From Terriglobia bacterium (GTDB lineage: Bacteria > Acidobacteriota > Terriglobia > 20CM-2-55-15), in contig CBDAOY010000008.1 of assembly GCA_965198225.1 (NCBI GenBank), positions 768,012-832,011 on the forward strand: 64,000 nucleotides of DNA. Reading direction: 5' to 3'. Shown here in pieces: positions 208 to 62,102 of this stretch (position 1 is the stretch's first letter; every line of letters begins with the position of its first letter). Position numbers and translations under genes: made by a program. The notes under the pieces were generated by a model. The model saw only the letters and a list, made by a program, of their open reading frames with translations, made no database searches and was not told the DNA's origin.

Positions 208-316
208 GACTCCCCTCCTCAGATGAGGAGGGGTGGCGCGAAGCGCCGGGGTGGTGCTGACCAAGAGATTCTGCGCCTGTGGCGCAGCTACGCCTCCTTA
301 TCCAGGGAGGGGAGTC
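208..316. repeat. REP/MITE-like element, family 1 (GACTCCCCTCC...GGAGGGGAGTC termini, internal TGGCGCGAAGCGCCA and CTGCGCC..GGCGCAG hairpins)
   Basis: Same modular sequence recurs at 4732-4777, 7783-8005, 36541-36590 and 44586-44753; intergenic; spurious ORF 139..324 lies inside it. Confidence 0.55.
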
Positions 317-393
317 GTTTTTAACTTCCACACTGCTGACCAACTGACTACCGACTACGGACAACGGCCTACGTCTTCTGTTATCCTGCCCGC

Positions 394-2472: not shown

Positions 2473-2921
2473 CCACACCCTGCGTGCAGATGGACCGCGA
2501 TCAACTCGAGTCAGGTCTCGCGGCCTACCTCGGTGAAATGGGTGTTCGGAGCGTCGTGGTCGACTCCGAACGGGTTCGCCTGGAGGCATTCGAGCACGTG
2601 GATTCGCCTCGAGCCGATTGTGGCGTGACCGACGTACTGTGGGGCATCGCATCGACGGGTACCCTTGCGATACCGATGACACCGGACAACCGACGAACAA
2701 CGTCCTTGGTTCCCCCGCTTCATGTCGCTCTGCTCGGAAAGGAGGATCTGATTCCCGATCTCACGATGGCCCTCGATCACCTGTATCAGGGAATGATGAA
2801 AAGGGAGGATCGTCCGTCGAGCGTAGTTTTCGTCACCGGTGCGAGTCGGACCGCCGATATCGAGTTGGACCTGGTCGTCGGGGTGCATGGGCCTCGGGAG
2901 TTACACGTGGTGTTGTTCTAG
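2430..2921 (+). CDS. lutC: LutC-like lactate utilization protein (DUF162/LUD domain)
   Basis: Overlaps the lutAB 3' end; 163 aa; stop TAG lies in the CTAG site that received the IS insertion. Confidence 0.65.
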   Translation: MELVRKFEAAARTLATPCVQMDRDQLESGLAAYLGEMGVRSVVVDSERVRLEAFEHVDSPRADCGVTDVLWGIASTGTLAIPMTPDNRRTTSLVPPLHVALLGKEDLIPDLTMALDHLYQGMMKREDRPSSVVFVTGASRTADIELDLVVGVHGPRELHVVLF

Positions 2922-2963
2922 GGCGTGTTAACACTAATGAGCATGAATGTTTTATAATCACGC

Positions 2964-3371
2964 ATGGAGATCACACAGGAGCAGTATTGTCGCATCGAGC
3001 CGGAACTGCCGCGTCAGCGGGGCAACGTCAGTCTTTCGAACCTGACGGTCTTGAACGCCATTTTGTATGTGGCTGAGCAGGGCTGCAAGTGGCGCGGTCT
3101 GCCCAAGCGCTTTGGCAACTGGCACACCATCTACACCCGGATGAACCGCTGGTCCAAGAACGGCGTGCTCGACGCCGTCTTCGAGAAACTCCAGCGCGAG
3201 CAACTGGTCCGCATCCGGGTCGAAGCCGTTTCGATGGACTCAACCATTGTGAAGGTGCATCCCGACGGCACGGGAGCGTTAAAAAAAACGGTCCGCAAGC
3301 GATCGGCAAATCCCGCGGCGGATGGACCACCAAGATTCATCTGGTTGCCGCGAATGCTCGAACGGCGATAA
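2964..3371 (+). CDS. IS5-family transposase, N-terminal frame (orfA)
   Basis: Sequence ...LTVLNAILYVAEQGCKWRGLPKRFGNWHTIYTRMNRWSKNGV... is typical of the IS427 group; an A8 slippery run at about 3283-3290 fits a programmed frameshift. Confidence 0.8.
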   Translation: MEITQEQYCRIEPELPRQRGNVSLSNLTVLNAILYVAEQGCKWRGLPKRFGNWHTIYTRMNRWSKNGVLDAVFEKLQREQLVRIRVEAVSMDSTIVKVHPDGTGALKKTVRKRSANPAADGPPRFIWLPRMLERR

Positions 3372-3721
3372 CGTTTGCGCTCTCGCCCGGCCAAGCGCAC
3401 GACGCCCCGCAGGGCCGCGATCTGCTCGCCGGCCTGGGGCCATTGCCCGCGCCGCTGCCGCTGCTGATGGACCGTGCCTACCAGGACGACCAGACCCGCC
3501 AATTGGCTCTGGATTTTGGGTGGATTCCCGTCGTGCCGCCCAAGCGCAACCGCCTGGAGCCGTGGGAATACGACCGCGTGCTCTACCGCCGCAGGAACGA
3601 AGTCGAGAGGCTCTTCCGCCGACTCAAGGGTTTCCGGCGTATCTTCTCCCGTTTCGATAAACTCGACGTCATGTTCCTCGCCTTCCTTCACTTCGCGCTC
3701 ATCGTCGAGGCACTACGTTAG
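3089..3721 (+). CDS. IS5-family transposase, C-terminal frame (orfB, DDE domain); expression depends on a frameshift from orfA
   Basis: Sequence ...GWTTKIHLVAANARTAITFALSPGQAHDAPQG...LDFGWIPVVPPKRNRLEPWEYDRVLYRRRNEVERLFRRLKGFRRIFSRFDKL... is DDE-transposase IS427-like. Confidence 0.8.
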   Translation: MARSAQALWQLAHHLHPDEPLVQERRARRRLRETPARATGPHPGRSRFDGLNHCEGASRRHGSVKKNGPQAIGKSRGGWTTKIHLVAANARTAITFALSPGQAHDAPQGRDLLAGLGPLPAPLPLLMDRAYQDDQTRQLALDFGWIPVVPPKRNRLEPWEYDRVLYRRRNEVERLFRRLKGFRRIFSRFDKLDVMFLAFLHFALIVEALR

Positions 3722-3734
3722 TGTTAACACGCCC

Positions 3735-3759
3735 TAGTGACCTGTTACAGGTCACTAGC
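3735..3759. repeat. 25-nt palindrome CTAGTGACCTG-TTA-CAGGTCACTAG (two joined MITE-type termini) containing the stop codons of convergent lutC and the moaD-like gene
   Basis: Perfect 11-bp arms; the same termini flank the 275-bp elements at 14062, 35240 and 51729. Confidence 0.6.
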
Positions 3760-7782: not shown

Positions 7783-8056
7783 GACTCCTAGGCGGCCACC
7801 AAAACTCCCCTCCTCAGACCACCCCGTCTGCGCCCCTGGCGCAGCCACCTCCTTATCAAGGAGGGGAGTCCGGGGTGAGGCGAAGGGCCGGGGTGGTGTT
7901 GATCAATAAAATCCCGCCTAAACTTCTGGCGCATCCAATAGCGTGATCCAACCACCCCGTCTGTGCCTTCGGCACATCCACCCCTCCTTATCCAGAGGGG
8001 AGTCGGCTCTCGTCAAGGACAGTGCCGCCACAACGGCCTACGGATAACGGCCTACG
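7783..8056. repeat. Composite repeat block: family-1 modules (two nested copies) followed by a family-3 GGCCTACG motif
   Basis: GGACTCC...CTCCCCTCCTCAG...CTGCGCCCCTGGCGCAG...GGAGGGGAGTCC, then ...CTGTGCCTTCGGCACA...CCAGAGGGGAGTC, then CAACGGCCTACGGATAACGGCCTACGCC. Confidence 0.5.
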
Positions 8057-8059
8057 CCT

Positions 8060-10128
8060 TCACTCCTCCGGGTACGGGGTCCGGTTTCTGTAAACGATCC
8101 ACAACGTGGACACGAGTGTGACTGCGGCCAGGACGTAGACGACGGGGTCGAGCTGATCCACCGGGAATCCCTGTTCACCGGCCCAGATCGCCAAGGCGTT
8201 GTTTCCAATGTGAAGTACGATTCCGGGAAAGATCGACCCGGTCATCAGCGCGACTGCGGTGATCACGATGCCGAGGAATCCGGTCGTGATGATCCTGAAG
8301 ATCGTCACGTGGAAGAACCCGAAGATGCCGCCGACGACGAGTGCGAGCACCACCGGCCGGAACTTGCGGCGCAGACCGTAGAGTAGAACTCCCCTGAAAC
8401 CGATTTCCTCGCAGATTCCGGGCAGCACCGCCACGAAAAACATCAACTGCCACAGCGGCAGCCCCTCGGCGGCGAAGGCCTCCGACATCTGCTCCATGAC
8501 GCTCTGAGGGACTGGGAATACCGTGCTCGCGAACGCCAACACTGGGATAGCACTGAGCGACATGGCAGGCAGCATCAGCAGGATCACCGGCCAGAGACCG
8601 ACTCGAATCGGTCTGATCGCCAGGGTCTTTCGAGGGTCGAGTCCGTAAACCTTGACGATCAGCAGCGTGGTCCCGATGAACAGCACCAGCTCGTTGAAAA
8701 TGAGCTGAGCGCGCAGAGTGCCCAGCTGCGGCACTCCTATCGCGACACCGAACATCACCGCCCAGAGCACGGCAAACCATCGCCAGACGTTTGCCCGGAA
8801 AGCCGCCGGACCGGTCATCTGTGCCGGGTGCCGCTCCTGTGTGGCCGTGATGAGACGTTCCTCTCCGAGCAGGCCGGCCGAAAAGCGGACGAGCGTGAAG
8901 GCCAGCAGGGAATTGACCAGAAAGGCAACCACGGTCATCGGCCAGTCGGGGTTGCCGGCCAGGACCTCCCTGGCGGCGACACTGACGTTGGCTACCGGGA
9001 CGAGTGCGATAGCGGACCGCAGGTCGACGCCCGGGATCGCGCCGGCGAAGGCCGGCAGCATGCCCACCATATAGACAGGAAAAAAGTATAGCTGGGCCTC
9101 CTTGTACGACTTTGCGTAGGCGGACAGCATCAGGAGGACTCCGGCGACAAGAACGGCAAGCGGAACGTAGAGCAGCATCAAAGCGAGCGCAGAAGACGTC
9201 GATACCCGAAAAACGAAGTCCTCCGGCAGAGGAATGATGTCGAAGCTGGTGTAGACGAGAAGGTTGCCGACCTGGATCAACGTGATCACGAGAGCGACTG
9301 CCATGATGACCAGCTGCTTGGCGGCGATGATGTCGGTCCTGCCGGCGGCCGTCGTGAGGAGGGTTTCCAGCGTGCCACGCTCCTTCTCGCCGGCAATGAT
9401 GTCCATGGCCACGACCGAGCCGCCGGTCAAGGTGAGCAGGAACAGGAAGGCGGTGATGAACCGACCGATCTGGAGACCCGATGTCTCGGCCGCCGAGGCC
9501 ATGCTGGTTTCTTCAATCGCTATGAGTTCGGAGAATCGAATGGGGATTCCCCTGTCTTCGAAAGCGCCTTCGGCCCCATCCCGTCGGCCCAGCGTCAGCA
9601 GTCGCCGCATCCTGTTCGCACCGTCGGCTGCGGATGCCCTGTTGCCGGGAACGAAGATCTGGATCACGGGAACGCCGTCCAGGCGCCGGGCGAGTTCGTG
9701 CGGAAGTTCCCCGTCCTCATCATCCTGTTCGTCCTCGCGCGCCGCCCATTCCTCATCCGCGGCTCCGGAGCTCAGCGCGTTCAGATAGAACTGAATTTCG
9801 CGTTCCCGGAGGCTGAGTTCCGGGTCCGGAACCTGCACCTCGTGACGTTTGAAGTTGTGCAGCTCCGAATCCGGGTCCGATTGCAGGGCCTCCTCGGCAC
9901 GACCGATCAAAAGACGTGCCTCCTCGCTCCAGTCACCGGTGATTGCGTAGTCGTAGACGGTCTCCACGAGTTGCAGGTCCCGGCGTTCCGAAGCGAAGCG
10001 GGTGGCGAACAACATCACGGGCATGACCAGCATGGGAAGGATGATCGAGAGGATGATCGTCCGCCGCGACCGCAGGAGCGTGCGGATTTCCAGCTGCCAG
10101 ATGAGACGAACCGTGTCCCAGTTCAATG
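8060..10128 (-). CDS. ABC-2 family permease fused to a C-terminal CPBP (CAAX/Abi) intramembrane protease domain
   Basis: Multi-TM permease; C-terminus carries CPBP motifs EEIGFRG, FGFFH and HIGNN; TTG start overlapping the ATPase stop (ATTGA); the longer ORF 8060..10213 overlaps the ATPase. Confidence 0.65.
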
Positions 10129-14061: not shown

Positions 14062-14336
14062 CTAGTGACCTGTAACAGTGCTATCGGTACCAGCGTTCGG
14101 CGGAACGGCGTCGGATTCTAGGAGTGACGCCCGAGCCAATGCTGTTTCATTGCGAGGGCGTTACGACACCGAAGACGGCGCCGTTGGGCCGAACCCTTCG
14201 GGCCGATGGGGGTTGCGGGCGATCTCTTTGTCGGAAGCCGTCACCGATGAAAGAGCATCGCTTTCCGTCTCCCTCCTCGACCTCGCCCGCAAGACCCATC
14301 GGCGATGGTGCCGATAGCACTGTTACAGGCCACTAG
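14062..14336. mobile_element. MITE copy A (275 bp; TIR CTAGTGACCTGTAACAGTGCTATCGGTACCA ... TGGTGCCGATAGCACTGTTACAGGCCACTAG; TA duplication in a CTAG target)
   Basis: Near-identical reverse-complement copy at 51729-52003, diverged copy at 35240-35514; intergenic; internal ORFs not credible. Confidence 0.75.
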
Positions 14337-18779: not shown

Positions 18780-18841
18780 CGTCCTATCCGCCTCCGTGCG
18801 GATTGTCGATCATCTTGCAGGCGCTCCAGGGCGTCGGTGTC

Positions 18842-19981
18842 TCATCGGCTTGAATTCGAGTTGGAGTTGCCGTTCGAGTTGGAGTTGCCGTTCGAATTGA
18901 AGTTGCCGTTCGAGTTGGAGTTGCTGTTCGAGTTGGAGTTGCTGTTCGAGTTGGAGTTGGAGTTGCTGTTGCTGTTGGAGTTGCCGTTCGAATTGGAGTT
19001 GGAGTTCGTGTTCGAGTTGGAGTTCGTGTTGCCACCACCACCATTGGCGTTGCCGCCATTGCCGTTGCCCCCGGAGGGCGTCGTCATGAAGCCGAGGATC
19101 CCGCTCCGCCGAAGCGTGACGTCGGAGCTGAGGGTCACGTTGATCTGATTACCCGAGACGGGGTGGTTCTGACTCGCGAAGGATGTGACCGAGAGGTTGA
19201 TCCGCGTGATATTGCCGAGGGTGCCGGTCGGAACCGAACTCTGTCCGCTACCGCCGCCGCTACCACCGCTGCCACCGCTACCGCCGTTCCCGTTGGAATT
19301 TGTGTTGCCGTTGGAGTTCGAATTCGTGTTGCCGTTCGAGTTCGTGTTGCCGTTCGAGTTTGAATTCGAGTTGGAGTTGCTGTTCGAGTTGGAGTTGCTG
19401 TTCTGGTTGGAGTTGCTGTTTGAGTTGGAATTGCCGTTCTGCGCTGCCAACGTGATGAAGCCCCATCGGCGGAGGAGTCGAGCGACGGGAGACGCCGTGG
19501 GTGACGGGGGATTGCTGACGAAGCTTCCGGCATCACCGGTCGACACGAAATACGCAAAGAGCAACGCCGAGATATTGGATGCCAGTTGCTGCGACGTCGC
19601 CGTGCCTGTCAGGGCACCGGTCGCGTCCAACGGTTGTGTCGTCCGTGTGATGATGTTGTTGGCGTAGCTGAACGTCACCCGTTCGACCGTTCCGTCATCA
19701 TTCGTGTCGCCCGAAAAGGCGACCGTGGACTGATCGGCCTGGGCGATCGGCGTCACACCGGCGGGAGTGTTGTAGCCGGCGGACAGCAATTCCCGCCCGA
19801 TGCGTTCGGCTGCGAGCCGGGAATTCTGGCCGGCCTCGAGCTGGGACTGCTGGATCTGATAGGTTCTCTGATTCTGGGTGACGAGGAGAAAGACCGCTCC
19901 GAGGACGACCATCAACACAGCCACAACGATCAAGACTTCCAGCAGGGTGAAACCTTTGCTTCCTCTCTGTGCAGCTCTCAT
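18842..19981 (-). CDS. PilW/GspJ-like prepilin-type minor pilin with a long Asn/Ser/Gly-rich repetitive C-terminal tail
   Basis: Class III signal ...SKG|FTLLEVLIVVAVLMVVLGAV; C-terminal (NSNSNG)n, GGSGGSGGSGGGSG and (NSNSNS)n tracts encoded by hexanucleotide repeats. Confidence 0.6.
   Translation of the reverse strand: MRAAQRGSKGFTLLEVLIVVAVLMVVLGAVFLLVTQNQRTYQIQQSQLEAGQNSRLAAERIGRELLSAGYNTPAGVTPIAQADQSTVAFSGDTNDDGTVERVTFSYANNIITRTTQPLDATGALTGTATSQQLASNISALLFAYFVSTGDAGSFVSNPPSPTASPVARLLRRWGFITLAAQNGNSNSNSNSNQNSNSNSNSNSNSNSNSNGNTNSNGNTNSNSNGNTNSNGNGGSGGSGGSGGGSGQSSVPTGTLGNITRINLSVTSFASQNHPVSGNQINVTLSSDVTLRRSGILGFMTTPSGGNGNGGNANGGGGNTNSNSNTNSNSNSNGNSNSNSNSNSNSNSNSNSNSNSNSNGNFNSNGNSNSNGNSNSNSSR
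18850..19032. repeat. Tandem hexanucleotide/18-nt repeat tract 1 (GAGTTG/GAGTTC units) inside the pilW-like gene
   Basis: gttcgagttggagttgccgttcgagttggagttgc... repeated; encodes (NSNSNG)n on the minus strand. Confidence 0.75.
19288..19440. repeat. Tandem hexanucleotide repeat tract 2 inside the pilW-like gene, preceded by a GGTAGCGGC repeat (19237-19290)
   Basis: gttggagttcgaattcgtgttgccgttcgagtt... encodes NSNSNSN; the GGS-coding repeat lies immediately upstream on the coding strand. Confidence 0.75.
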
Positions 19982-20000
19982 AGACAAACTCTCCCTCGTG

Positions 20001-20405
20001 TTACGGGGCCCGATAGGTTCGGGCCGAGAGGTCGATCGGCGATGTTCCACCGATACCGGTGATAACGGTCGTGGTCACCGTGATCTCTTTCATCCCGACG
20101 CCCGGGGAATCGACTGTGACGGTCCAGGATCGGGTGAAGGCAGCTCCTGTCTCGGAAGTTTGCGGAATCCCGTCATCGTCCAGAAAGTCATTTCCGCTCT
20201 GCAAGGAATCATACGATGTGGCCTTCAATTCCTCCATCTTTTGTCGCAGGGCGGAGGTCATCCTCGAGATGTCCTGACTGTTCTTCGTTCCGATGACACT
20301 GGTGCTCATCGCGCCGGCCACCGCGAGGACGCCCGTCATCAGGATGAGCGAGGCAAGCATCAACTCGATGAGGCTGAAGCCTCTCTGGCTACTGGATGCT
20401 GACAT
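20001..20405 (-). CDS. PilV/GspI-like prepilin-type minor pilin
   Basis: N-terminus MSASSSQRG|FSLIELMLASLILMTGVLAV is a prepilin cleavage/methylation motif; 134 aa. Confidence 0.65.
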   Translation of the reverse strand: MSASSSQRGFSLIELMLASLILMTGVLAVAGAMSTSVIGTKNSQDISRMTSALRQKMEELKATSYDSLQSGNDFLDDDGIPQTSETGAAFTRSWTVTVDSPGVGMKEITVTTTVITGIGGTSPIDLSARTYRAP

Positions 20406-22570: not shown

Positions 22571-23806
22571 ATGAAGAACGCGAAACTGCACGCCTTCAAC
22601 AGACTCGCATTTGGGCCGCGGCAGGAAGATCTCGATCGCGATCTGGTCGATCTTCAGGAACACGTCGAGGTCCAGCTCCACCCGGCCGACATCGCCGACC
22701 AGGCGATAGAGCAGCGGCTGGCGACCCTGGAAACGCTCGGCATGTCGCCCCTGGAGTTCCTGAGGAAGTATCCCGGGCGCCGGGACTGGCGGATCGGTTT
22801 GCAGCAGCTGACGGCCGCAAAGCTGCTGCGCGCCGTCCAAAGCGAATGCCAGCTCCGGGAAGTGATGGTCGACTTCTGGTTCAATCACTTCAACGTATTC
22901 GCGGGTAAAGGTGCATGCCGGCTCCTGGTTTCTTCCTACGAGAGAGACGCCATCCGCCCGTACGTCTTCGGAAAGTTTCGCGAACTGGTGTCGGCGACGG
23001 CGCGCCACCCTGCGATGCTGTTCTACCTGGACAACTGGCTGAGCGCGTCGCCCGACGCCGAGCCGCGTGGGCGTCGTCGTGGGCTCAACGAGAACTATGC
23101 CCGGGAGTTGATGGAACTGCACACGCTCGGCGTCGATGGTGGCTACACGCAGGAAGACGTCGTCGCCGTGGCGCGCGCCTTCACCGGCTGGACGATAGAG
23201 GCCCCCCGGCGCCCGAGCTTCATGTTTGCCCCACCGCTGCATGACGACGGTGCCAAGACCGTCCTTGGCAGGGCGATAGACGGCGGCGGGATGCGGGATG
23301 GCGAACAGGTGATCGATGTGCTCTGTGGTCACCCGTCTGCGGCGCGGTTTGTCGCGACCAAATTGATTCGGCGTTTCGTCTCCGACGATCCCCCTGCGGC
23401 GCTGGTGGAGAGTGTGGCGCGGACGTTTACCCGGACGGATGGCGACATCCGGGAGATGCTCCGCGTGGTGATCCATTCGCGGGAGTTCGCCGAATCGGAA
23501 CAGCAGAAGGTCAAGACGCCGTTCGAGTTCGTCATCAGCGCCGTGCGTGCGCTCGGAGCCGAGGTGAGCAATCCCGGTATTCTCGCGCGGTTCCTGCAGC
23601 GGATGGGTCAGCCGCTCTACATGGCCATACCGCCGACCGGCTACTCCGACGAGGCGGCCGATTGGATGAGCTCCGGCACGCTGATGTTGCGTCTCAACTT
23701 CGTGGCGCAGATCGCTGCGGGGCGATCGCGGGGAATTCAGCTCGACGGGCGCGAGCCGGAGCAGATCGTCAGGAATCTGGGGACGCCGGAGTTTCAGCGG
23801 CGCTAG
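22571..23806 (+). CDS. DUF1800 family protein
   Basis: ...WFNHFNVFAGKGACRLLVSSYERDAIRPYVFGKFRELVSATARHPAMLFYLDNWLS... is the diagnostic DUF1800 block; pairs with a DUF1501 gene. Confidence 0.7.
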   Translation: MKNAKLHAFNRLAFGPRQEDLDRDLVDLQEHVEVQLHPADIADQAIEQRLATLETLGMSPLEFLRKYPGRRDWRIGLQQLTAAKLLRAVQSECQLREVMVDFWFNHFNVFAGKGACRLLVSSYERDAIRPYVFGKFRELVSATARHPAMLFYLDNWLSASPDAEPRGRRRGLNENYARELMELHTLGVDGGYTQEDVVAVARAFTGWTIEAPRRPSFMFAPPLHDDGAKTVLGRAIDGGGMRDGEQVIDVLCGHPSAARFVATKLIRRFVSDDPPAALVESVARTFTRTDGDIREMLRVVIHSREFAESEQQKVKTPFEFVISAVRALGAEVSNPGILARFLQRMGQPLYMAIPPTGYSDEAADWMSSGTLMLRLNFVAQIAAGRSRGIQLDGREPEQIVRNLGTPEFQRR

Positions 23807-24077
23807 CAGCCCGTGGCAGAACTCTGCAGGGCCGCGTTACGGCCAAACGGGGACCGGATTCTAGGAGGCGAGGACGAAACAATGCTCATTCATTGGGAGG
23901 AGTCGGCGACAACGAAGACGGCCCCATTTCGCCGTAACCCGAAGGGCGCAGGGGGGGGCGGGCCGCAGGCTTTGTCGCTCGTCGGTCACGATGAATGATC
24001 ATCGCTCCGCTCCTCTCTTCGCGCCTGCAACCCGAAGACCCCTGCGCGCGACCCTCCAGAGTTCTGCCACGGGCTGC
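23806..24077. mobile_element. MITE copy D: same roughly 210-bp core as copies A/B/C but different 30-bp termini (GCAGCCCGTGGCAGAACTCTGCAGGGCCGC ... inverted), with TA duplication
   Basis: Core blocks cggattctaggag, aatgct..ttcattg.gagg, cgaca.cgaagacggc, ctttgtcg and gtcac.gatgaa.ga.catcgct are shared with 14062-14336; flanked by TA/TA; sits between the DUF1800 and DUF1501 genes. Confidence 0.55.
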
Positions 24078-24122
24078 TATAGGGATGTTATTTCTGATTC
24101 AGGACGCCAGTTGGGTGAGGGA

Positions 24123-25346
24123 ATGGGCTTGACCAAGGAGTTTCGCATGGATCGCAGGAGTTTCCTGAAAGGTACCGGTGCATCGATCGTCACGCTCGGG
24201 TTTGCCCCTCGACTGGTGTGGGGCCAGGCGGCACGGCCCAAGGTGGTCGTGTCGGTGTTCCAGAGAGGTGCCGTGGACGGGTTGAATATGGTCGTCCCGT
24301 TCGCCGAGCAAACCTACTACGACAGCAGACCCAACATCGCGATCCCGATGCCTTCGCGTGAAGGGGAGGGGAAGGCTCTGGATCTGGACGGTTTCTTCGC
24401 CTTCCACCCTGCGATGGCTCCCCTGAAGCCCCTCTTCGAGGAGGAACGGCTCGCCGTGGTTCATGCCGCCGGTTCGCACGACCCCACGCGATCGCACTTC
24501 GACGCCCAGGACTACATGGAGTCGGCGACTCCTGGTGTGAAGAGCACCCGCGACGGCTGGATGAACCGCTACCTTCAGAGTGCTGCCGGTGACGCCAGTC
24601 CCCTTCGGGGTATGTCGATCGGCCGCAGCCTGCCCCGCACGCTCGCCGGGCGCTCGGCGACATTCTCTCTGGGTTCACTGGCGGAAGCCCGCCTGAACGG
24701 GCCCGCGCGTCTGTATAGGGAACTCTTCCAGGGTGAGCGGGAAGACATCGTTTCTCAGGCGTCGGTCGAGCTGTTCGAGACCCTGGACTTTCTCGAAGGC
24801 AAGCGTCTGGAAGACTACTCCCCCTCGGTCGACTATCCCAACGGACGGTTCCCTGCCGCCATGCGCGATGTGGCGCAGTTGATCAAGACCGACGTCGGGC
24901 TGGAAACGGCGTTCGTCGAGATTGGCGGGTGGGATCATCATGCCAACGAGGGTGGGACACGCGGCCAGATTGCGAATCGACTCCGCGAGTTCTCGGGTGG
25001 ACTGCGCGCTTTCTACGACGATCTCGGCGATCGGGTCGAAGACGTGGTCGTGGTCACGATGTCGGAATTCGGCCGGACCGTACGCGAGAACGGCAACCGC
25101 GGGACCGACCACGGCCACGCCAACGCCATGCTCGTCCTGGGGGGACCGGTGCGCGGCGGCAAGGTCTACGGTAAATGGCCCGGGCTCGAAACCGAGAAAC
25201 TCCATGAAGGGCGGGATCTGGCCGTAACCACCGACTTCAGGAACGTCCTGGCCGAAGTCTTGGCCGAGCATCTCGGAGCGGGCGACCTGGATGGTGTATT
25301 TCCGGACTTCGAGATTGCGAAACCGTTCGGTCTCATCCAGGCCTAG
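24123..25346 (+). CDS. DUF1501 family protein (Tat-signal, sulfatase/phosphatase-like fold)
   Basis: MDRRSFLKGTGASIVTLGFA twin-arginine motif; the listed ORF start at 23991 runs through the MITE, so it is trimmed to MGLTKEF (24123) or MDRRSF (24147). Confidence 0.7.
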   Translation: MGLTKEFRMDRRSFLKGTGASIVTLGFAPRLVWGQAARPKVVVSVFQRGAVDGLNMVVPFAEQTYYDSRPNIAIPMPSREGEGKALDLDGFFAFHPAMAPLKPLFEEERLAVVHAAGSHDPTRSHFDAQDYMESATPGVKSTRDGWMNRYLQSAAGDASPLRGMSIGRSLPRTLAGRSATFSLGSLAEARLNGPARLYRELFQGEREDIVSQASVELFETLDFLEGKRLEDYSPSVDYPNGRFPAAMRDVAQLIKTDVGLETAFVEIGGWDHHANEGGTRGQIANRLREFSGGLRAFYDDLGDRVEDVVVVTMSEFGRTVRENGNRGTDHGHANAMLVLGGPVRGGKVYGKWPGLETEKLHEGRDLAVTTDFRNVLAEVLAEHLGAGDLDGVFPDFEIAKPFGLIQA

Positions 25347-30194: not shown

Positions 30195-30499
30195 TGCTAG
30201 TGTCCTGAGTCGGGAACAATATCGCTATCGCAGACGAGTGTTGCTCGAGCAAATTTCGGACTCAGGACACTGTTACATGCCACCAGACGAGCCCCCGCTT
30301 TCGGAACCTTCCGAGGCGGCGACTCCTGACTACCCGTCCAGGGGCCCCTCCCTACCGAGGAGGGTCGCACCCCCCTGATGAATTCCTGTATTTCCTGCAT
30401 GGAGACGCGCAATTTTTACGTCTTATTAAGTGAGACGGCCATATGGAGACGTACGCAAGAAATTCGCGCGAGGGATTAAATCACTGATTCTATTTTTCT

Positions 30500-31953: not shown

Positions 31954-31990
31954 AAAAAGGCGACGACTCCTCGAGTCGTCGCCTTTTTGG
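31954..31990. terminator. Bidirectional rho-independent terminator (AAAAA-GGCGACGACTC-ctc-GAGTCGTCGCC-TTTTT) between the convergent EAL-HDOD and amidase genes; followed by a solo MITE terminus GTTACAGGCCAC-TA-TA at about 31992-32008
   Basis: 11-bp GC-rich stem, A-run upstream and T-run downstream. Confidence 0.65.
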
Positions 31991-32000
31991 TTACAGGCCA

Positions 32001-33425
32001 CTATAGCGGCGGACGACGGCGGTGCCAGTCGGTCTGGGACTCGTAGGCATGACTGACCTTGAACAGCGTGAACTCATCGAACGGCCGACCGTAGAACTGG
32101 ATCGTAATCGGTAATACCGGAGGGCCCGAAGCAAAGCCGCAGGGGATCGTGATCGCCGGCAGTCCCGTCATGTTCCCGATGAACGTGTTGCCTCGGCGAA
32201 ACCGGGGAGTCGACGCTCCAGGGCGGACGTCGCTCCGCGCCTCCTCGGCCGATCGGAGCCTGCCCGCCACGCTCGTGTTGCCCGGCACGGCCATGACGTC
32301 ACACGTTTCAAAGACCCGCTTCATGTCCTCTTGCAGTATGGTTCTCACGCGCAGAGCCTTGATGTAGTCGGTTGCGGTGTAGAACTTCCCGGTTTCGAGG
32401 CGCTCTCGTACCAGGGGGTCGAACAGGTGGGGCGACTCTCTTAGACGTCTCTCGTGAAAACATGCTGCTTCGGCCATAGCGACGGTCCAGCCGGCCGATC
32501 CGGCGAGGTTCGCGTTCGGGACTTCAACGTCCACTATCCGCGCTCCCATCTCGGTGAGCGAACGAATTGCTTCCCGAACCGCGCCGTCGACTTCATCGGA
32601 CGCTCCCTCGAAGAAGTAGTTCGTCGGAACGCCGATCCTCAGCCCTCGAATGTCGCCGTCCAGGGCACGATCATAGTCGGGGACAGCCTCATCGATCGTG
32701 CTGGGGTCCGCAGCGTCGAAGCCGGCCATGACCTGCAGCATGTGTGCGGCGTCGGCGACTGTCTTGGTCATCGGTCCGGCATGATCCAGCGTCCAGCTCA
32801 GCGTTGTCACGCCGTGGCGGCTGACGCGACCGTAGGTCTGTTTCAACCCTACAATTCCGTTCGCAGCCGCGGGTCCCCGGATGGACCCTCCCGTGTCGGT
32901 GCCGATCGACAACGGAACCATGTAGGCAGCCAGCGCAGCGCCCGAACCGCTGGAGGATCCGGCCGGCGAGTAGTCCAGATCCCAGGGATTGTGCACGGGT
33001 CCGAAGCCGGATAGGACGCCGCTGCCCATCGCGAACTCCAGCAGGTTCAGCTTCCCGATCAGGATGGCGCCGGCACGGTTCAGGCGATCGGTGATCGTGG
33101 ACTCGTAGTCGGGAACCCAGTTGGCCGTGACTTTTGATCCGTTCGTCGTGAGGATGTTTCTGGTCGCCAGGATGTCTTTGGGTGCGTAAGGGATGCCGTG
33201 CAGCGGGCCGCGGTAGCTTCCACCCTGTATCTCGCGCTCTGCCTCGCGTGCTCTCCGTAGAGCGTGCTCGCGCGTGAGGGTGATGAAGGCGTTGACCTGC
33301 GGATTGAGTCGCTCCGCGCGGTCGAGGAACGCTGTGACGACTTCAACCGGGGACACCTCCCGTGAACGTACGAGGTCTGCGAGTTCCACACCACTCTTGA
33401 AAACAAGATCCTCGGCCTGCATCAT
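32001..33425 (-). CDS. Amidase-signature family amidase (GatA/AtzE-like)
   Basis: AS motif GSSSGSGAALAA, the catalytic Ser-cisSer-Lys region, and the APKDIL block; 474 aa. Confidence 0.8.
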   Translation of the reverse strand: MMQAEDLVFKSGVELADLVRSREVSPVEVVTAFLDRAERLNPQVNAFITLTREHALRRAREAEREIQGGSYRGPLHGIPYAPKDILATRNILTTNGSKVTANWVPDYESTITDRLNRAGAILIGKLNLLEFAMGSGVLSGFGPVHNPWDLDYSPAGSSSGSGAALAAYMVPLSIGTDTGGSIRGPAAANGIVGLKQTYGRVSRHGVTTLSWTLDHAGPMTKTVADAAHMLQVMAGFDAADPSTIDEAVPDYDRALDGDIRGLRIGVPTNYFFEGASDEVDGAVREAIRSLTEMGARIVDVEVPNANLAGSAGWTVAMAEAACFHERRLRESPHLFDPLVRERLETGKFYTATDYIKALRVRTILQEDMKRVFETCDVMAVPGNTSVAGRLRSAEEARSDVRPGASTPRFRRGNTFIGNMTGLPAITIPCGFASGPPVLPITIQFYGRPFDEFTLFKVSHAYESQTDWHRRRPPL

Positions 33426-35239: not shown

Positions 35240-35514
35240 CTAGTGGCCTGTAACGGAGATATCGGCACCATCGCCGATGGGTCTTGCCAGTCGAGGTCGA
35301 GGAGAGAGGAGGAATTGATGCGGTTTCATCATGACGACGAACGACAAAGAGATCGACGGCAACCCCCATCGGCCCGGAGGGTTGCGGCGGAACGGCACCG
35401 TCTTCGTTGTCGCTCCTCCTCGCAATGTAGGCGCATTACCTCGTCGTCGACTCCTAGAATCCGGTGCCGTTCCACCGCAACGCTGGTACCGATATCTCCG
35501 TTACAGGCCACTAG
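35240..35514. mobile_element. MITE copy B (diverged; CTAGTGGCCTGTAACGGAGATATCGGCACCA ... TGGTACCGATATCTCCGTTACAGGCCACTAG) inserted exactly between the gnd stop and the FGGY-kinase start
   Basis: Same termini and core as 14062-14336 and 51729-52003; the gnd TAG stop lies in the right CTAG, the kinase GTG is 1 nt from the left CTAG. Confidence 0.7.
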
Positions 35515-44529: not shown

Positions 44530-44585
44530 GAGCCAACAAAGGTAAAACGTAGGTGGTGTGCGGGGCAAGCCTCTGTTTCAGAAAC

Positions 44586-44753
44586 GGACTCCCCTCCTCG
44601 GATCAGGAGGGGTGGCGCGAAGCGCCAGGGTGGTGTCGACCGGGAAGAAAACCACCCCGTTGGCGCCCTTGGCGCATCCACCCGGGCAATCGAACCACCC
44701 CGTCTGCGCCTTCGGCGCATCCACGCCTCCTTATCTATCCAAGGAGGGGAGTC
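44586..44753. repeat. Family-1 REP/MITE-like element (full modular copy)
   Basis: GGACTCCCCTCCTCGGATCAGGAGGGGTGGCGCGAAGCGCCAGGGTGGTG ... ACCACCCCGTCTGCGCCTTCGGCGCATCCAC...CTCCTTATCTATCCAAGGAGGGGAGTC. Confidence 0.6.
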
Positions 44754-51728: not shown

Positions 51729-52003
51729 CTAGTGGCCTGTAACAGTGCTATCGGTACCATCGCCGATGGGTCTTGCGGGCGAGGTCGAGGAGGGAGACGG
51801 AAAGCGATGCTCTTTCATCGGTGACGGCTTCCGACAAAGAGATCGCCCGCAACCCCCATCGGCCCGAAGGGTTCGGCGGAACGGCGCCGTCTTCGGTGTC
51901 GTAACGCCCTCGCAATGAAACAGCATTGGCTCGGGCGTCACTCCTAGAATCCGACGCCGTTCCGCCGAACGCTGGTACCGATAGCACTGTTACAGGTCAC
52001 TAG
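51729..52003. mobile_element. MITE copy C (reverse-complement, near-identical to copy A)
   Basis: CTAGTGGCCTGTAACAGTGCTATCGGTACCA...TGGTACCGATAGCACTGTTACAGGTCACTAG; spurious ORFs 51729..51941 and 51748..51987 mirror those in copy A. Confidence 0.75.
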
Positions 52004-56140: not shown

Positions 56141-56169
56141 GACCGTGACAAGTGTCACGCCACGGGCTG

Positions 56170-56712
56170 CTAAAGCTTCTTGAACGTCCCGAACACAACA
56201 TCCCAAACGGGGGACGTCACGCCGTAACAATTCCTCTCATCGATGAAATGATGGTAGAAATGGCGCCTTCGGTGCCAATCGACCCCTTGTGAACGAGAGC
56301 TGACGTGTACGCTGTAGTGGACCCACTCGTAGTAGAGGAATCCCGCCCAGAGGCCCATCATCACGCCGGCAGCCGACAAGAGGCTGGCGGTCCACGCGTG
56401 CACGATGGCCAGGATCAGGGCAGAAATCGGAATGCTGAACAGCGGCCGCACCAGGATCTTGTTCGGATTCCTCGGATCGGCGTGATGGGCCAGATGAAAC
56501 TGGTAGACGAGTTTGCGCAGGCTCGGGTTGGAAGGGCTCCAGTGAAAGACGAATCGGTGGAGGCCGTACTCCAGAAGAGTCCAGATCACTAAGCCCGCTG
56601 GTCCCAGCCAGAGATAGTCGACGAAAGACCGCTGCCCCTCGACCTGAGTCGCAGAGTAAACAAGGATCGCCGCAGCCGAAGGATAGAACCAGAACGAGCA
56701 GAAGCGCACCAT
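56170..56712 (-). CDS. Fatty acid hydroxylase / sterol desaturase superfamily membrane protein
   Basis: Histidine boxes ...HRFVFHW..., ...HLAHHADPRN..., ...HHFIDERNCYG... Confidence 0.6.
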   Translation of the reverse strand: MVRFCSFWFYPSAAAILVYSATQVEGQRSFVDYLWLGPAGLVIWTLLEYGLHRFVFHWSPSNPSLRKLVYQFHLAHHADPRNPNKILVRPLFSIPISALILAIVHAWTASLLSAAGVMMGLWAGFLYYEWVHYSVHVSSRSQGVDWHRRRHFYHHFIDERNCYGVTSPVWDVVFGTFKKL

Positions 56713-61561: not shown

Positions 61562-62072
61562 GGTGTAGGTGCGCTCTATGAGCGCACGTGTTTCGATTTG
61601 AAGAGTGTGCGGTCATAGACCGCACCTACACGTATCGCAAATTGCGATATTTGAAAGAATCCACATTGCAGGTTGCTCATTGGAGATTGTTTTCATTTCA
61701 GATTTCCGACCAATAAGAAATCGAGCAATTTGCAATCTCCAAATTTCCACTGCGGAATCGTCCAGTGACCAATCTGCAATGGCTGTCGGACGAGGTCCCC
61801 AGCCACCTCACTCGATCGAGTAGAGTGTGCGGTCATAGACCGCACCGACACCTATCGCAATTGCGAGATTTGAAAAGAATCCACATTGCAGGTTGCTCAT
61901 TGGAGATTGTTTCATTTCAGATTTCCGACCAATAAGAAATCGAGCAATTTGCAATCTCCAGATTTCCAATGCGGAATCGTCCAATGACCAATCTGCAATA
62001 GCTGTCGGACGAGGTCCCCAGCCATCTCCCTCGATCGAGTAGAGTGTGCGGTCATAGACCGCACCTACACGT
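61562..62072. repeat. Tandem repeat: two roughly 220-bp low-GC units, each bounded by the hairpin GAGTGTGCGGTC-ATA-GACCGCAC(C)TACAC(G) (three hairpin copies at 61603, 61823, 62042) and preceded by a variant hairpin at 61562
   Basis: Unit period 220/219 bp with about 95% identity between units; GC content well below the window average. Confidence 0.75.
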
Positions 62073-62102
62073 CATGCAGCGATACAGGCCGGGATTGCCG
62101 GG

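What the first reader, a model, noticed from the sequence alone, without database searches (positions are those of the whole stretch)
23806..24077. Same MITE core carried between a different pair of 30-bp terminal repeats (a core-sharing element family with swapped termini)
The roughly 210-bp interior of this element aligns block-by-block with the 14062/35240/51729 elements. Its termini, however, are GCAGCCCGTGGCAGAACTCTGCAGGGCCGC and the inverted copy, again with TA/TA flanks and CTAG at the left junction. A conserved core with exchangeable termini is unusual for MITEs. It hints that the core itself may be functional (a structured RNA?) or that the elements arose by recombination between families. 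The element also forced a corrected start for the DUF1501 gene.
Basis: seen in the sequence. Interest (0 to 1): 0.5.

Follow-up and report, generated by a model that had tools for sequence, protein, structure and literature searches.

The report
Modular hairpin MITE with borrowed ends
This is one copy of an abundant, roughly 270-bp non-coding jumping element of soil Acidobacteria, in which a conserved hairpin core sits between ends copied from a particular insertion sequence; it is a new, unusually modular family of a familiar kind of selfish DNA, not a gene.

Summary
Window 23804-24079 is a 276-nt element with 33-nt inverted termini. Its interior aligns with the copies at 14062, 35240 and 51729, but its terminal stem is different. 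It is a miniature inverted-repeat transposable element (MITE). It lies between CTAG-type target copies exactly at the DUF1800 stop codon, and three orthologous loci lack it (25-nt versus 340-nt spacer). More than 150 copies were found, and every organism-labelled one is from an Acidobacteriota MAG. All fold as a Y: a terminal stem P1, a conserved arm A, a small hairpin and a variable arm B. Some relatives have only P1 plus arm A. At least 12 different P1 sequences carry the same arm A. The P1 of this copy matches, for 17-25 nt, the ends of a 1.49-kb IS1182/IS5-like insertion sequence found in the same genomes. The terminus was therefore acquired, not drifted. Arm A helices covary (20 of 37 pairs), and conserved G.A mismatches persist. 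However, orientation relative to genes is random, the two strands fold about equally well, and inserted copies decay neutrally. The structure is therefore probably selected for propagation of the element, not as a host RNA gene. This is a new modular variant of a known kind, of moderate interest.

The parts
23803..23806 (+). Left target copy CTAG. TAG (23804-23806) is the DUF1800 stop codon. TA (23804-23805) is the left copy if the duplication is 2 bp.
   Evidence: Orthologues have ...CGT TAG AAT... at the same place.
23804..23835 (+). P1 5' strand, i.e. the left terminal inverted repeat, family B. The first 17 nt after T (AGCAGCCCGTGGCAGAA) equal the right end of the IS1182/IS5-like IS.
23836..23937 (+). 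Arm A, the conserved module. It is a long hairpin with tandem G.A internal loops, an internal CTAG and a conserved apex (AATGC-TCATTC-ATTG).
23855..23867 (+). CGGATTCTAGGAG block on the 5' side of arm A. It faces CGAAGACGG across GA.GA mismatches.
23913..23921 (+). CGAAGACGG block on the 3' side of arm A.
23938..23944 (+). Small central hairpin CC-GAA-GG. The stem is invariant across families and the loop is variable.
23946..24047 (+). Arm B, the variable second hairpin.
   Evidence: (I2).
24048..24079 (+). P1 3' strand, i.e. the right terminal inverted repeat.
24077..24080 (+). Right target copy CTAT. TA (24078-24079) is the right copy if the duplication is 2 bp.
22571..23806 (+). DUF1800 gene. 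Its stop codon lies at the insertion point.
24147..25346 (+). DUF1501 gene with the true start at 24147. The longest ORF, from 23991, starts inside the element.
14062..14336 (+). Family A copy of the same superfamily.
35240..35514 (-). Family C copy.
51729..52003 (-). Family A copy, 99% identical to the copy at 14062.
   Evidence: (I1).

Best explanation
The feature is a non-autonomous DNA transposon (MITE) of a previously undescribed, modular superfamily abundant in Acidobacteriota. Each element is a near-palindrome that folds as a terminal stem P1 (the inverted repeats) closing a conserved hairpin of about 100 nt (arm A). Most members also have a small central hairpin and a second, fast-evolving hairpin (arm B). 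Elements insert at TA within CTAG-like targets and regenerate CTAG at both borders. Here the insertion hit the DUF1800 stop codon. The copy in the finding belongs to family B. Its P1 was acquired from the ends of a 1.49-kb IS encoding a DUF772 + DDE_Tnp_1 (IS1182/IS5-like) transposase present in the same genomes, and that transposase most likely mobilises it in trans (inferred). The families at 14062, 35240 and 51729 carry the same arm A behind other termini whose parent IS was not found. Arm A and its pairing are kept between families, while individual inserted copies decay neutrally. The constraint therefore acts on propagation of the element, not on a host function. The most likely reason is inferred and untested: whole-element hairpin or cruciform formation brings the two ends of a short, stiff element together for transposase synapsis. 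Because CTAG-targeting elements stack end to end at regenerated CTAG sites, chimeras with new termini can arise.
For: Shown:
- Termini and flanks: 33-nt TIRs with CTAG/CTAT flanks.
- Filled versus empty site: three orthologues at 88-89% identity have a 25-nt spacer against 340 nt here.
- Position: 86 of 91 copies are intergenic.
- Flanking duplication: direct, including non-canonical matched pairs (L019, L086, L061, L056).
- No conserved ORF: frames shift between families (by reading the alignment).
- B termini match IS ends 19/19 nt (17/17 for the window variant), and the core has no similarity to the IS interior. The same ends are conserved in ISs whose transposases are 64-93% identical, with a 24/25-nt match to the L105 right end.
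- Same Y fold in all families, z = -8 to -12. One-armed relatives exist.
- Arm A: 86% of cells paired against 31-53% with partners slid, and 20 of 37 pairs with compensatory change against 4-8.
- Between-family identity: arm A 0.70, inner P1 0.44-0.46, arm B 0.46.
- Neutral decay within family A.
- Decay products: fused-tip palindromes, solo tips and IS-interrupted copies.
- End-to-end stacking at shared CTAG.
Against: - No transposition has been observed; trans-mobilisation by the IS1182/IS5-like transposase rests on terminus identity and co-occurrence only.
- The duplication length (2 bp TA or 4 bp CTAG) is unresolved, because the target is palindromic and the window junction is not base-perfect (about 42 extra nt downstream).
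- The parent IS of the non-B termini was not found, and IS630-type ends resemble them only weakly.
- Copies were collected with a pattern requiring two arm A motifs, which inflates apparent arm A conservation. Pattern columns were excluded, and motif-free families were recovered, but the sample is still biased.
- The cruciform/synapsis rationale is speculation.
- Concerted evolution of palindrome arms could produce some compensatory changes without selection.
Confidence: 0.82

Rival explanations
1. The core is a multi-copy structured non-coding RNA gene (or cis-regulatory RNA) that happens to be carried by transposon ends. The Y fold and conserved loops would serve an RNA function for the host or the element.
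For: Very stable folds, z = -8 to -12. Compensatory changes in internal helices. Conserved G.A mismatches and apex loop flanked by covarying pairs. A modest excess of G.U over A.C in P1 and a slightly more stable + strand.
Against: Orientation relative to neighbouring genes is random (26 versus 23, p = 0.78). The strand energy difference is small and noisy, -3.5 +/- 10 kcal/mol. There is no promoter-like site in the element and no Rfam match even at E <= 5. Substitutions within family A are not depleted in arm A. Arm A was never found outside a TIR-bounded element.
Confidence: 0.08
2. The termini were never exchanged. All P1 variants descend from one ancestral terminal repeat by rapid compensatory drift, with both arms kept alike by transposase recognition or by arm-to-arm repair.
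For: Non-B families form a graded series (A-C-F-E-G, D-H) with matched changes on both arms. All types share the tip pattern TAG-YR-N-CC-Y-GT, the last 3-5 bp of P1 and the same P1 length.
Against: The B terminus is identical to the ends of an IS family for 19-25 nt, and those ends are stable across 64-93% transposase identity. Convergence by drift is therefore implausible. The A versus B tip score is at most 5 of 25, while B versus the IS right end is 15-17.
Confidence: 0.1
3. The elements are hairpin repeats moved as single-stranded DNA by a HUH/Y1 enzyme (REPIN/RAYT-like, or IS200/IS605-derived palindromic elements), with arm A as the recognised hairpin.
For: Extensive hairpin structure that is also stable with DNA parameters. 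A conserved hairpin module independent of the termini.
Against: Long perfect terminal inverted repeats and flanking direct duplications are not features of those systems. The termini equal those of a DDE-transposase IS. No RAYT or TnpA gene was seen in the regions examined, though they were not searched exhaustively.
Confidence: 0.03

Closest known systems
RUP of Streptococcus pneumoniae and other IS-matched bacterial MITEs (Delihas review, PMC2229807)
   Same: Small, non-coding and multi-copy. TIRs resemble those of a resident IS and are presumed to be mobilised in trans. Inserts at TA-containing targets, is mostly intergenic, and folds as a stable stem-loop.
   Different: RUP is 107 bp, is a single stem-loop, and is matched to IS630-Spn1. 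This element is about 271 bp and Y-shaped. Family B matches an IS1182/IS5-like IS, and the same core occurs behind many different termini.
Correia/NEMIS elements of Neisseria
   Same: TA at termini, 24-26-bp TIRs, and hundreds of copies. Several terminus subtypes exist on a common body. Copies lie in operons and next to genes, with a long stem in transcripts.
   Different: Correia terminus subtypes differ by a few bases, not by replacement. Correia elements are 100-155 bp with an IHF site. No parent IS is known for Correia, whereas one is identified here for family B.
Caulobacter/Brucella CIR repeats (described in PMC2229807 as having two arms joined by a linker)
   Same: Two hairpin arms joined by a linker rather than one stem-loop, with a conserved short motif exposed in the structure.
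   Different: CIR lacks the long closing terminal stem described here. Its conserved motif is a GANTC methylation site. There is no sequence relation, although this was not tested beyond Rfam.
Eukaryotic Stowaway and Tourist MITEs (from my own knowledge: these share only TIRs and the target duplication with Tc1/mariner and PIF/Harbinger transposons, the latter related to IS5, and internal sequence has been reported to tune transposition frequency)
   Same: The MITE shares only its termini with the autonomous element, and the interior is unrelated. The idea that the interior influences mobilisation also carries over.
   Different: These are bacterial, the termini are longer, and one conserved interior module is shared across several terminus classes. 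That is the reverse of the usual pattern of one terminus with many interiors.

Membership tests
MITE (non-autonomous DDE transposon) | Short (under about 500 bp) with no transposase or conserved ORF | tested here: met
   270-276 bp. Reading frames shift between families. ORF lists show nothing conserved.
MITE (non-autonomous DDE transposon) | Terminal inverted repeats | tested here: met
   33 nt, 94% complementary. Present in 143 of 148 full arm A hits that could be assessed.
MITE (non-autonomous DDE transposon) | Flanking target-site duplication | tested here: met
   CTAG/CTAG in 42 of 76 copies. Direct, non-palindromic matched pairs occur: CCAG, CTGG, CTAT, CTAA. The length, 2 or 4 bp, is not resolved.
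MITE (non-autonomous DDE transposon) | Many dispersed copies, with presence/absence at orthologous sites | tested here: met
   At least 87 genome loci and 62 metagenome loci. Three orthologous loci are empty.
MITE (non-autonomous DDE transposon) | Termini match those of an autonomous IS in the same genomes | tested here: met
   Family B: 17-19 nt identical to the right end of a 1.49-kb IS in the same MAG (L028), and 24/25 nt to L105. Not met for the non-B families, for which no parent was found.
MITE (non-autonomous DDE transposon) | Demonstrated mobilisation by that transposase | not testable with these tools
   Needs a transposition assay.
IS1182 family (as the source of the family B termini) | Transposase reaches the NCBIfam IS1182 equivalog cut-off | tested here: not met
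   148.7 bits against a cut-off of 270. The IS5_4 model gives 89 against 140. Pfam DUF772 + DDE_Tnp_1 are present. I therefore call it IS1182/IS5-like, not a member.
IS630/Tc1-mariner-mobilised MITE | TA duplication and termini matching an IS630-family IS | tested here: inconclusive
   The TA-in-CTAG target fits, and IS630-family ISs (268.5 bits against a cut-off of 100) are present with CTAG borders. However, their ends match non-B tips only weakly (score at most 7 of 25; 10 nt for the L146 type) and do not match family B at all.
Any Rfam RNA family | Covariance-model match | tested here: not met
   0 hits at gathering threshold over the window. Nothing relevant at E <= 5 on two copies.
REP/REPIN (RAYT-mobilised) | 20-40-bp palindromes with a GTAG/CGTC tag, no TIR or target duplication, and an associated RAYT gene | tested here: not met
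   Long TIRs and flanking duplications are present. No RAYT gene was seen in the regions examined, though they were not searched exhaustively.

The most novel reading that the evidence does not exclude
Arm A is a portable cis-acting module, a structured DNA or RNA hairpin with conserved G.A loops, an exposed CTAG and a conserved apex. It actively promotes mobilisation or survival of whatever terminal repeats enclose it. It has therefore been captured repeatedly by termini of at least two unrelated transposase families, working as a transposition-enhancer cassette that moves between transposon systems.
Probability: 0.25. Interest if true: 0.65.

Novelty: new variant of a known kind. Interest (0 to 1): 0.4.

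Why it matters
MITEs are usually defined by their termini, with interiors treated as filler. Here the pattern is reversed: one structured interior module persists behind a dozen different terminal stems, one of which was demonstrably taken from an insertion sequence. If the module aids transposition, it would give a concrete and testable case of interior sequence determining MITE success in bacteria. It would also show how non-autonomous elements switch the transposase they parasitise. In practical terms, the family is frequent in Terriglobia genomes and sits at stop codons and inside operons. It misleads ORF-based start prediction, as for the DUF1501 gene here, and it will fragment short-read assemblies.

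Tried and rejected
- Rfam, at gathering threshold and in permissive mode: no family.
- tRNA/tmRNA scan: none.
- Coding potential of the core: frames are not conserved between families.
- Promoter/terminator scan of the element: no promoter-like site, and one weak terminator-like hairpin at chance level.
- Parent IS for the A-type termini:
  - Tip-pair searches in all loci found none.
  - L014 tips are solo fragments.
  - IS630-type ISs at 72-100% identity have conserved but different ends.
  - IS1182-like ISs down to 64% identity all have B ends.
  - The 820-bp IS at window 2919-3737 has unrelated TIRs.
- Similarity of the core to the interior of either IS: noise only.
- L040 as an autonomous element: it is a sister-family MITE interrupted by an IS256-type insertion.
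- Kissing-loop idea between the two apex loops: complementary in families A and B but not in C, judged by eye from the sequences, so dropped.
- K-turn reading of the G.A loops: the geometry does not fit (by inspection).
- Viral contigs: no copies.
- Base-precise reconstruction of the insertion site: prevented by about 42 lineage-specific nt next to the element.

Full report
**1. The observation**

Window 23804-24079 carries 33-nt inverted termini that are 94% complementary and 210 nt apart. CTAG lies at the left border (23803-23806) and CTAT at the right (24077-24080).

The interior aligns with the elements at 14062-14336 (+), 35240-35514 (-) and 51729-52003 (-). Mean column identity is 80%, with long invariant blocks (I2, I6, I7). 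A pattern built from two invariant blocks occurs exactly four times in the window, against zero in 100 shuffles.

**2. It is a mobile, non-coding repeat**

All are Acidobacteriota MAGs (Terriglobia, Ca. Versatilivorator), often dozens per genome. It also found 62 metagenome loci and none in viral contigs.
- Of 91 full copies, 86 are intergenic.
- Copies are bordered by CTAG on both sides in 42 of 76 cases. Where the borders depart from CTAG they can still be direct repeats (CCAG/CCAG, CTGG/CTGG, CTAT/CTAT, CTAA/CTAA), which marks a target-site duplication rather than an extension of the inverted repeat.
- The positions next to the element almost never vary and the outermost vary most. I could not decide between a 2-bp TA and a 4-bp CTAG duplication.
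- For the copy in question, three orthologous loci (DUF1501 88-89% identical) have the DUF1800 stop and the DUF1501 start 25 nt apart, against 340 nt in the window. The element begins at the TAG stop codon. The junction is not base-perfect, because the window lineage has about 42 further nt downstream.
- Decay products are present: 21-bp fused-tip palindromes, solo tips, and a copy interrupted by an IS256-type insertion.
- No reading frame is conserved between families.

**3. Anatomy**

Every family folds into the same Y shape, with z-scores of -8 to -12 and also with DNA parameters.
- A terminal stem P1 of about 32 bp (the inverted repeats).
- Arm A, a hairpin of about 100 nt with tandem G.A internal loops, an internal CTAG and a conserved apex.
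- A small CCC-loop-GGG hairpin.
- Arm B, a second hairpin of about 100 nt.

Length is 271 +/- 3 nt. Families D and E have an unrelated arm B sequence that still forms a hairpin of the same size. Metagenome relatives of about 170 bp consist of P1 plus arm A only. Arm A is weakly similar to the reverse complement of arm B in families B, C and H (z = 3.4-5.4) but not in D and E, so the ancestor was probably a near full-length palindrome.

**4. What is conserved**

Mean identity between families by region, with the columns forced by my search pattern excluded:

| Region | Identity between families |
|---|---|
| Arm A | 0.70 |
| Central hairpin | 0.73 |
| P1 tips | 0.61-0.63 |
| Inner P1 | 0.44-0.46 |
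| Arm B | 0.46 |

A profile search recovered families lacking my motif (B', G, C'). In these, the base pairs flanking the G.A loops change on both sides (CCG/CGG to CCA/UGG, UUC/GAA to UGC/GCA), while the G.A mismatches and the CUAG stay.

On an arm A alignment that includes these families:
- 86% of cells pair, against 31-53% when partners are slid by 1-3 columns.
- 20 of 37 pairs show compensatory change, against 4-8 when slid.
- At most 1 of 500 shuffles reaches any of the five observed measures (0 of 500 for four of them).

P1 shows up to six pair types per column. That is expected of inverted repeats whatever their function, so it does not discriminate.

**5. The termini**

There are at least 12 P1 types. 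Among the non-B types they grade into each other. Family B, the finding, is distinct: the A versus B tip score is at most 5 of 25.

In MAG locus L028 a complete 1.49-kb IS has the same ends. It encodes a 471-aa DUF772 + DDE_Tnp_1 transposase. ISs with transposases 64-93% identical keep those ends. Family B MITEs match the IS right end 19/19 nt at both MITE ends (17/17 for the window variant), and match one clade 24/25 nt. Nothing in the core matches the IS interior.

The transposase scores best against NCBIfam IS1182 but below its cut-off (148.7 against 270) and below the IS5 cut-offs. I therefore call it IS1182/IS5-like. A captured IS1182-family member makes a 4-bp direct repeat (PMC3281130).

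An IS630-family IS also lies in these genomes with CTAG borders. Its ends resemble the non-B tips only weakly. The parent of the non-B termini remains unknown.

A plausible route (inferred) follows from end-to-end stacking. At least five kinds of element here insert at CTAG and regenerate CTAG at both borders, so they stack end to end: IS next to IS in L028, MITE next to MITE in L024, L026 and L075, and IS next to MITE at window 3735 and in L026. Such junctions are substrates for chimeras.

**6. RNA gene or transposon structure?**

Against a strand-specific RNA:
- Orientation relative to flanking genes is random in tandem contexts (26 same, 23 opposite, p = 0.78).
- The two strands fold about equally well (E(+) - E(-) = -3.5 +/- 10 kcal/mol), and G.U versus A.C in P1 is 56 versus 36.
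- There is no promoter-like site and no Rfam match.
- Within the recently expanded family A, substitutions per site per copy are 0.019 in arm A against 0.014 overall, so inserted copies are not under purifying selection.
- Arm A never occurs outside a stem-bounded element in 1.16 Mb.

The constraint on arm A therefore acts on the lineages that keep transposing. My preferred reason is inferred, not shown. A short, stiff element benefits from whole-element hairpin or cruciform formation, which places both ends at the base of the structure for transposase synapsis. Persistent G.A mismatches and a conserved apex suggest that a protein contact is also possible.

**7. Comparison with known elements**

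Bacterial MITEs are typically 100-200 bp, carry TA at their termini and fold as one long stem-loop. RUP is matched to IS630-Spn1. CIR repeats are the noted exception, with two arms joined by a linker (PMC2229807).

This family shares the defining MITE features (see the membership table). It differs in four ways: it is longer, it is Y-shaped, it is matched for family B to an IS1182/IS5-like IS, and it keeps one interior module behind many termini. I found no description of it.

**8. Side claim**

The DUF1501 start at 24147 is right. An identical 399-aa protein is on record, and the orthologues are also 399 aa. In loci that lack the element, the orthologues begin at the corresponding ATG. The longest ORF, from 23991, starts inside the element.

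**9. Caveats**

- Copies were ascertained with arm A motifs.
- Only 8 kb or less around each hit was available.
- MAG assemblies can misplace repeats.
- No experiment supports mobilisation.

**10. Verdict**

It is a new modular MITE superfamily, which I rate a new variant of a known kind and of moderate interest.

Noticed in passing
window 2919-3737: An IS of about 820 bp of the IS5/IS427 type. ORF 3089-3721 has DDE_Tnp_1. The TIRs are GGCGTGTTAACACTAA and CTAG lies at both borders. Copies 97% identical occur in L026, L049 and L083. It abuts an A-type tip palindrome here and a full A-type MITE in L026, sharing one CTAG each time.
   Followed up: partly
window 3735-3759; also L026 ~1301, L030 ~4877, L024 ~2807: A recurring 21-bp palindrome, AGTGACCTGT-A-ACAGGTCACT, between CTAGs. 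It consists of the two A-type tips fused with everything between them lost. It could be a deletion product, an excision relic or a minimal mobile unit.
   Followed up: partly
window 30197-30275: An 80-bp element whose tip and inner stem (CTAGTGTCCTGAGTCGGGAACAATATCGCTATCG) match the P1 of a Y-element family seen only in metagenomes (L152, L161). It is probably an internally deleted derivative.
   Followed up: partly
window ~31990-32003 and ~56160-56172: Solo right-end tips, A-type and B-type respectively, with no partner. The first lies directly after a terminator-like hairpin.
   Followed up: no
L028 5116-7757: The IS1182/IS5-like IS and an IS630-family IS abut at a single shared CTAG. The IS630-family element has conserved, imperfect ends, TAGTGGTCCCCGTCAAAC and TAGTGTAGTCCGTCA, across homologues 72-100% identical.
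   Followed up: yes
many loci; window 23804-23806: Many copies lie 2-4 nt into the end of a called gene, meaning at its stop codon. Insertion at the TA of TAG or TAA with an element starting in G rebuilds a TAG stop, so such insertions leave the upstream protein intact.
   Followed up: partly
L002, L007, L035, L058, L072, L081 (300-308 nt copies); L023/L040 (306-312 nt): Some family B and family A copies carry an extra hairpin-like insert of about 28-35 nt inside arm B.
   Followed up: no
window 18815-19463: A coding-strand repeat with an 18-nt (and 12-nt) period, built of GTTGGAGTTGCCGTTCGA-like units, inside the ORF at 18842-20050 (-). It probably encodes a repetitive protein.
   Followed up: no
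window 61600-62080: About three tandem copies of a unit of about 220 bp, 90-100% identical over the repeated blocks, in an apparently non-coding stretch.
   Followed up: no
window 208-320, 4740, 7798-8060, 36536, 44582-44745: Another dispersed repeat family. It has GACTCCCCTCCTCAGATGAGGAGGGG hairpins, AACCACCCCGTCTGCGCC...GGCGCA hairpins and ACGGCCTACGG runs, and is unrelated to the MITE studied here.
   Followed up: no
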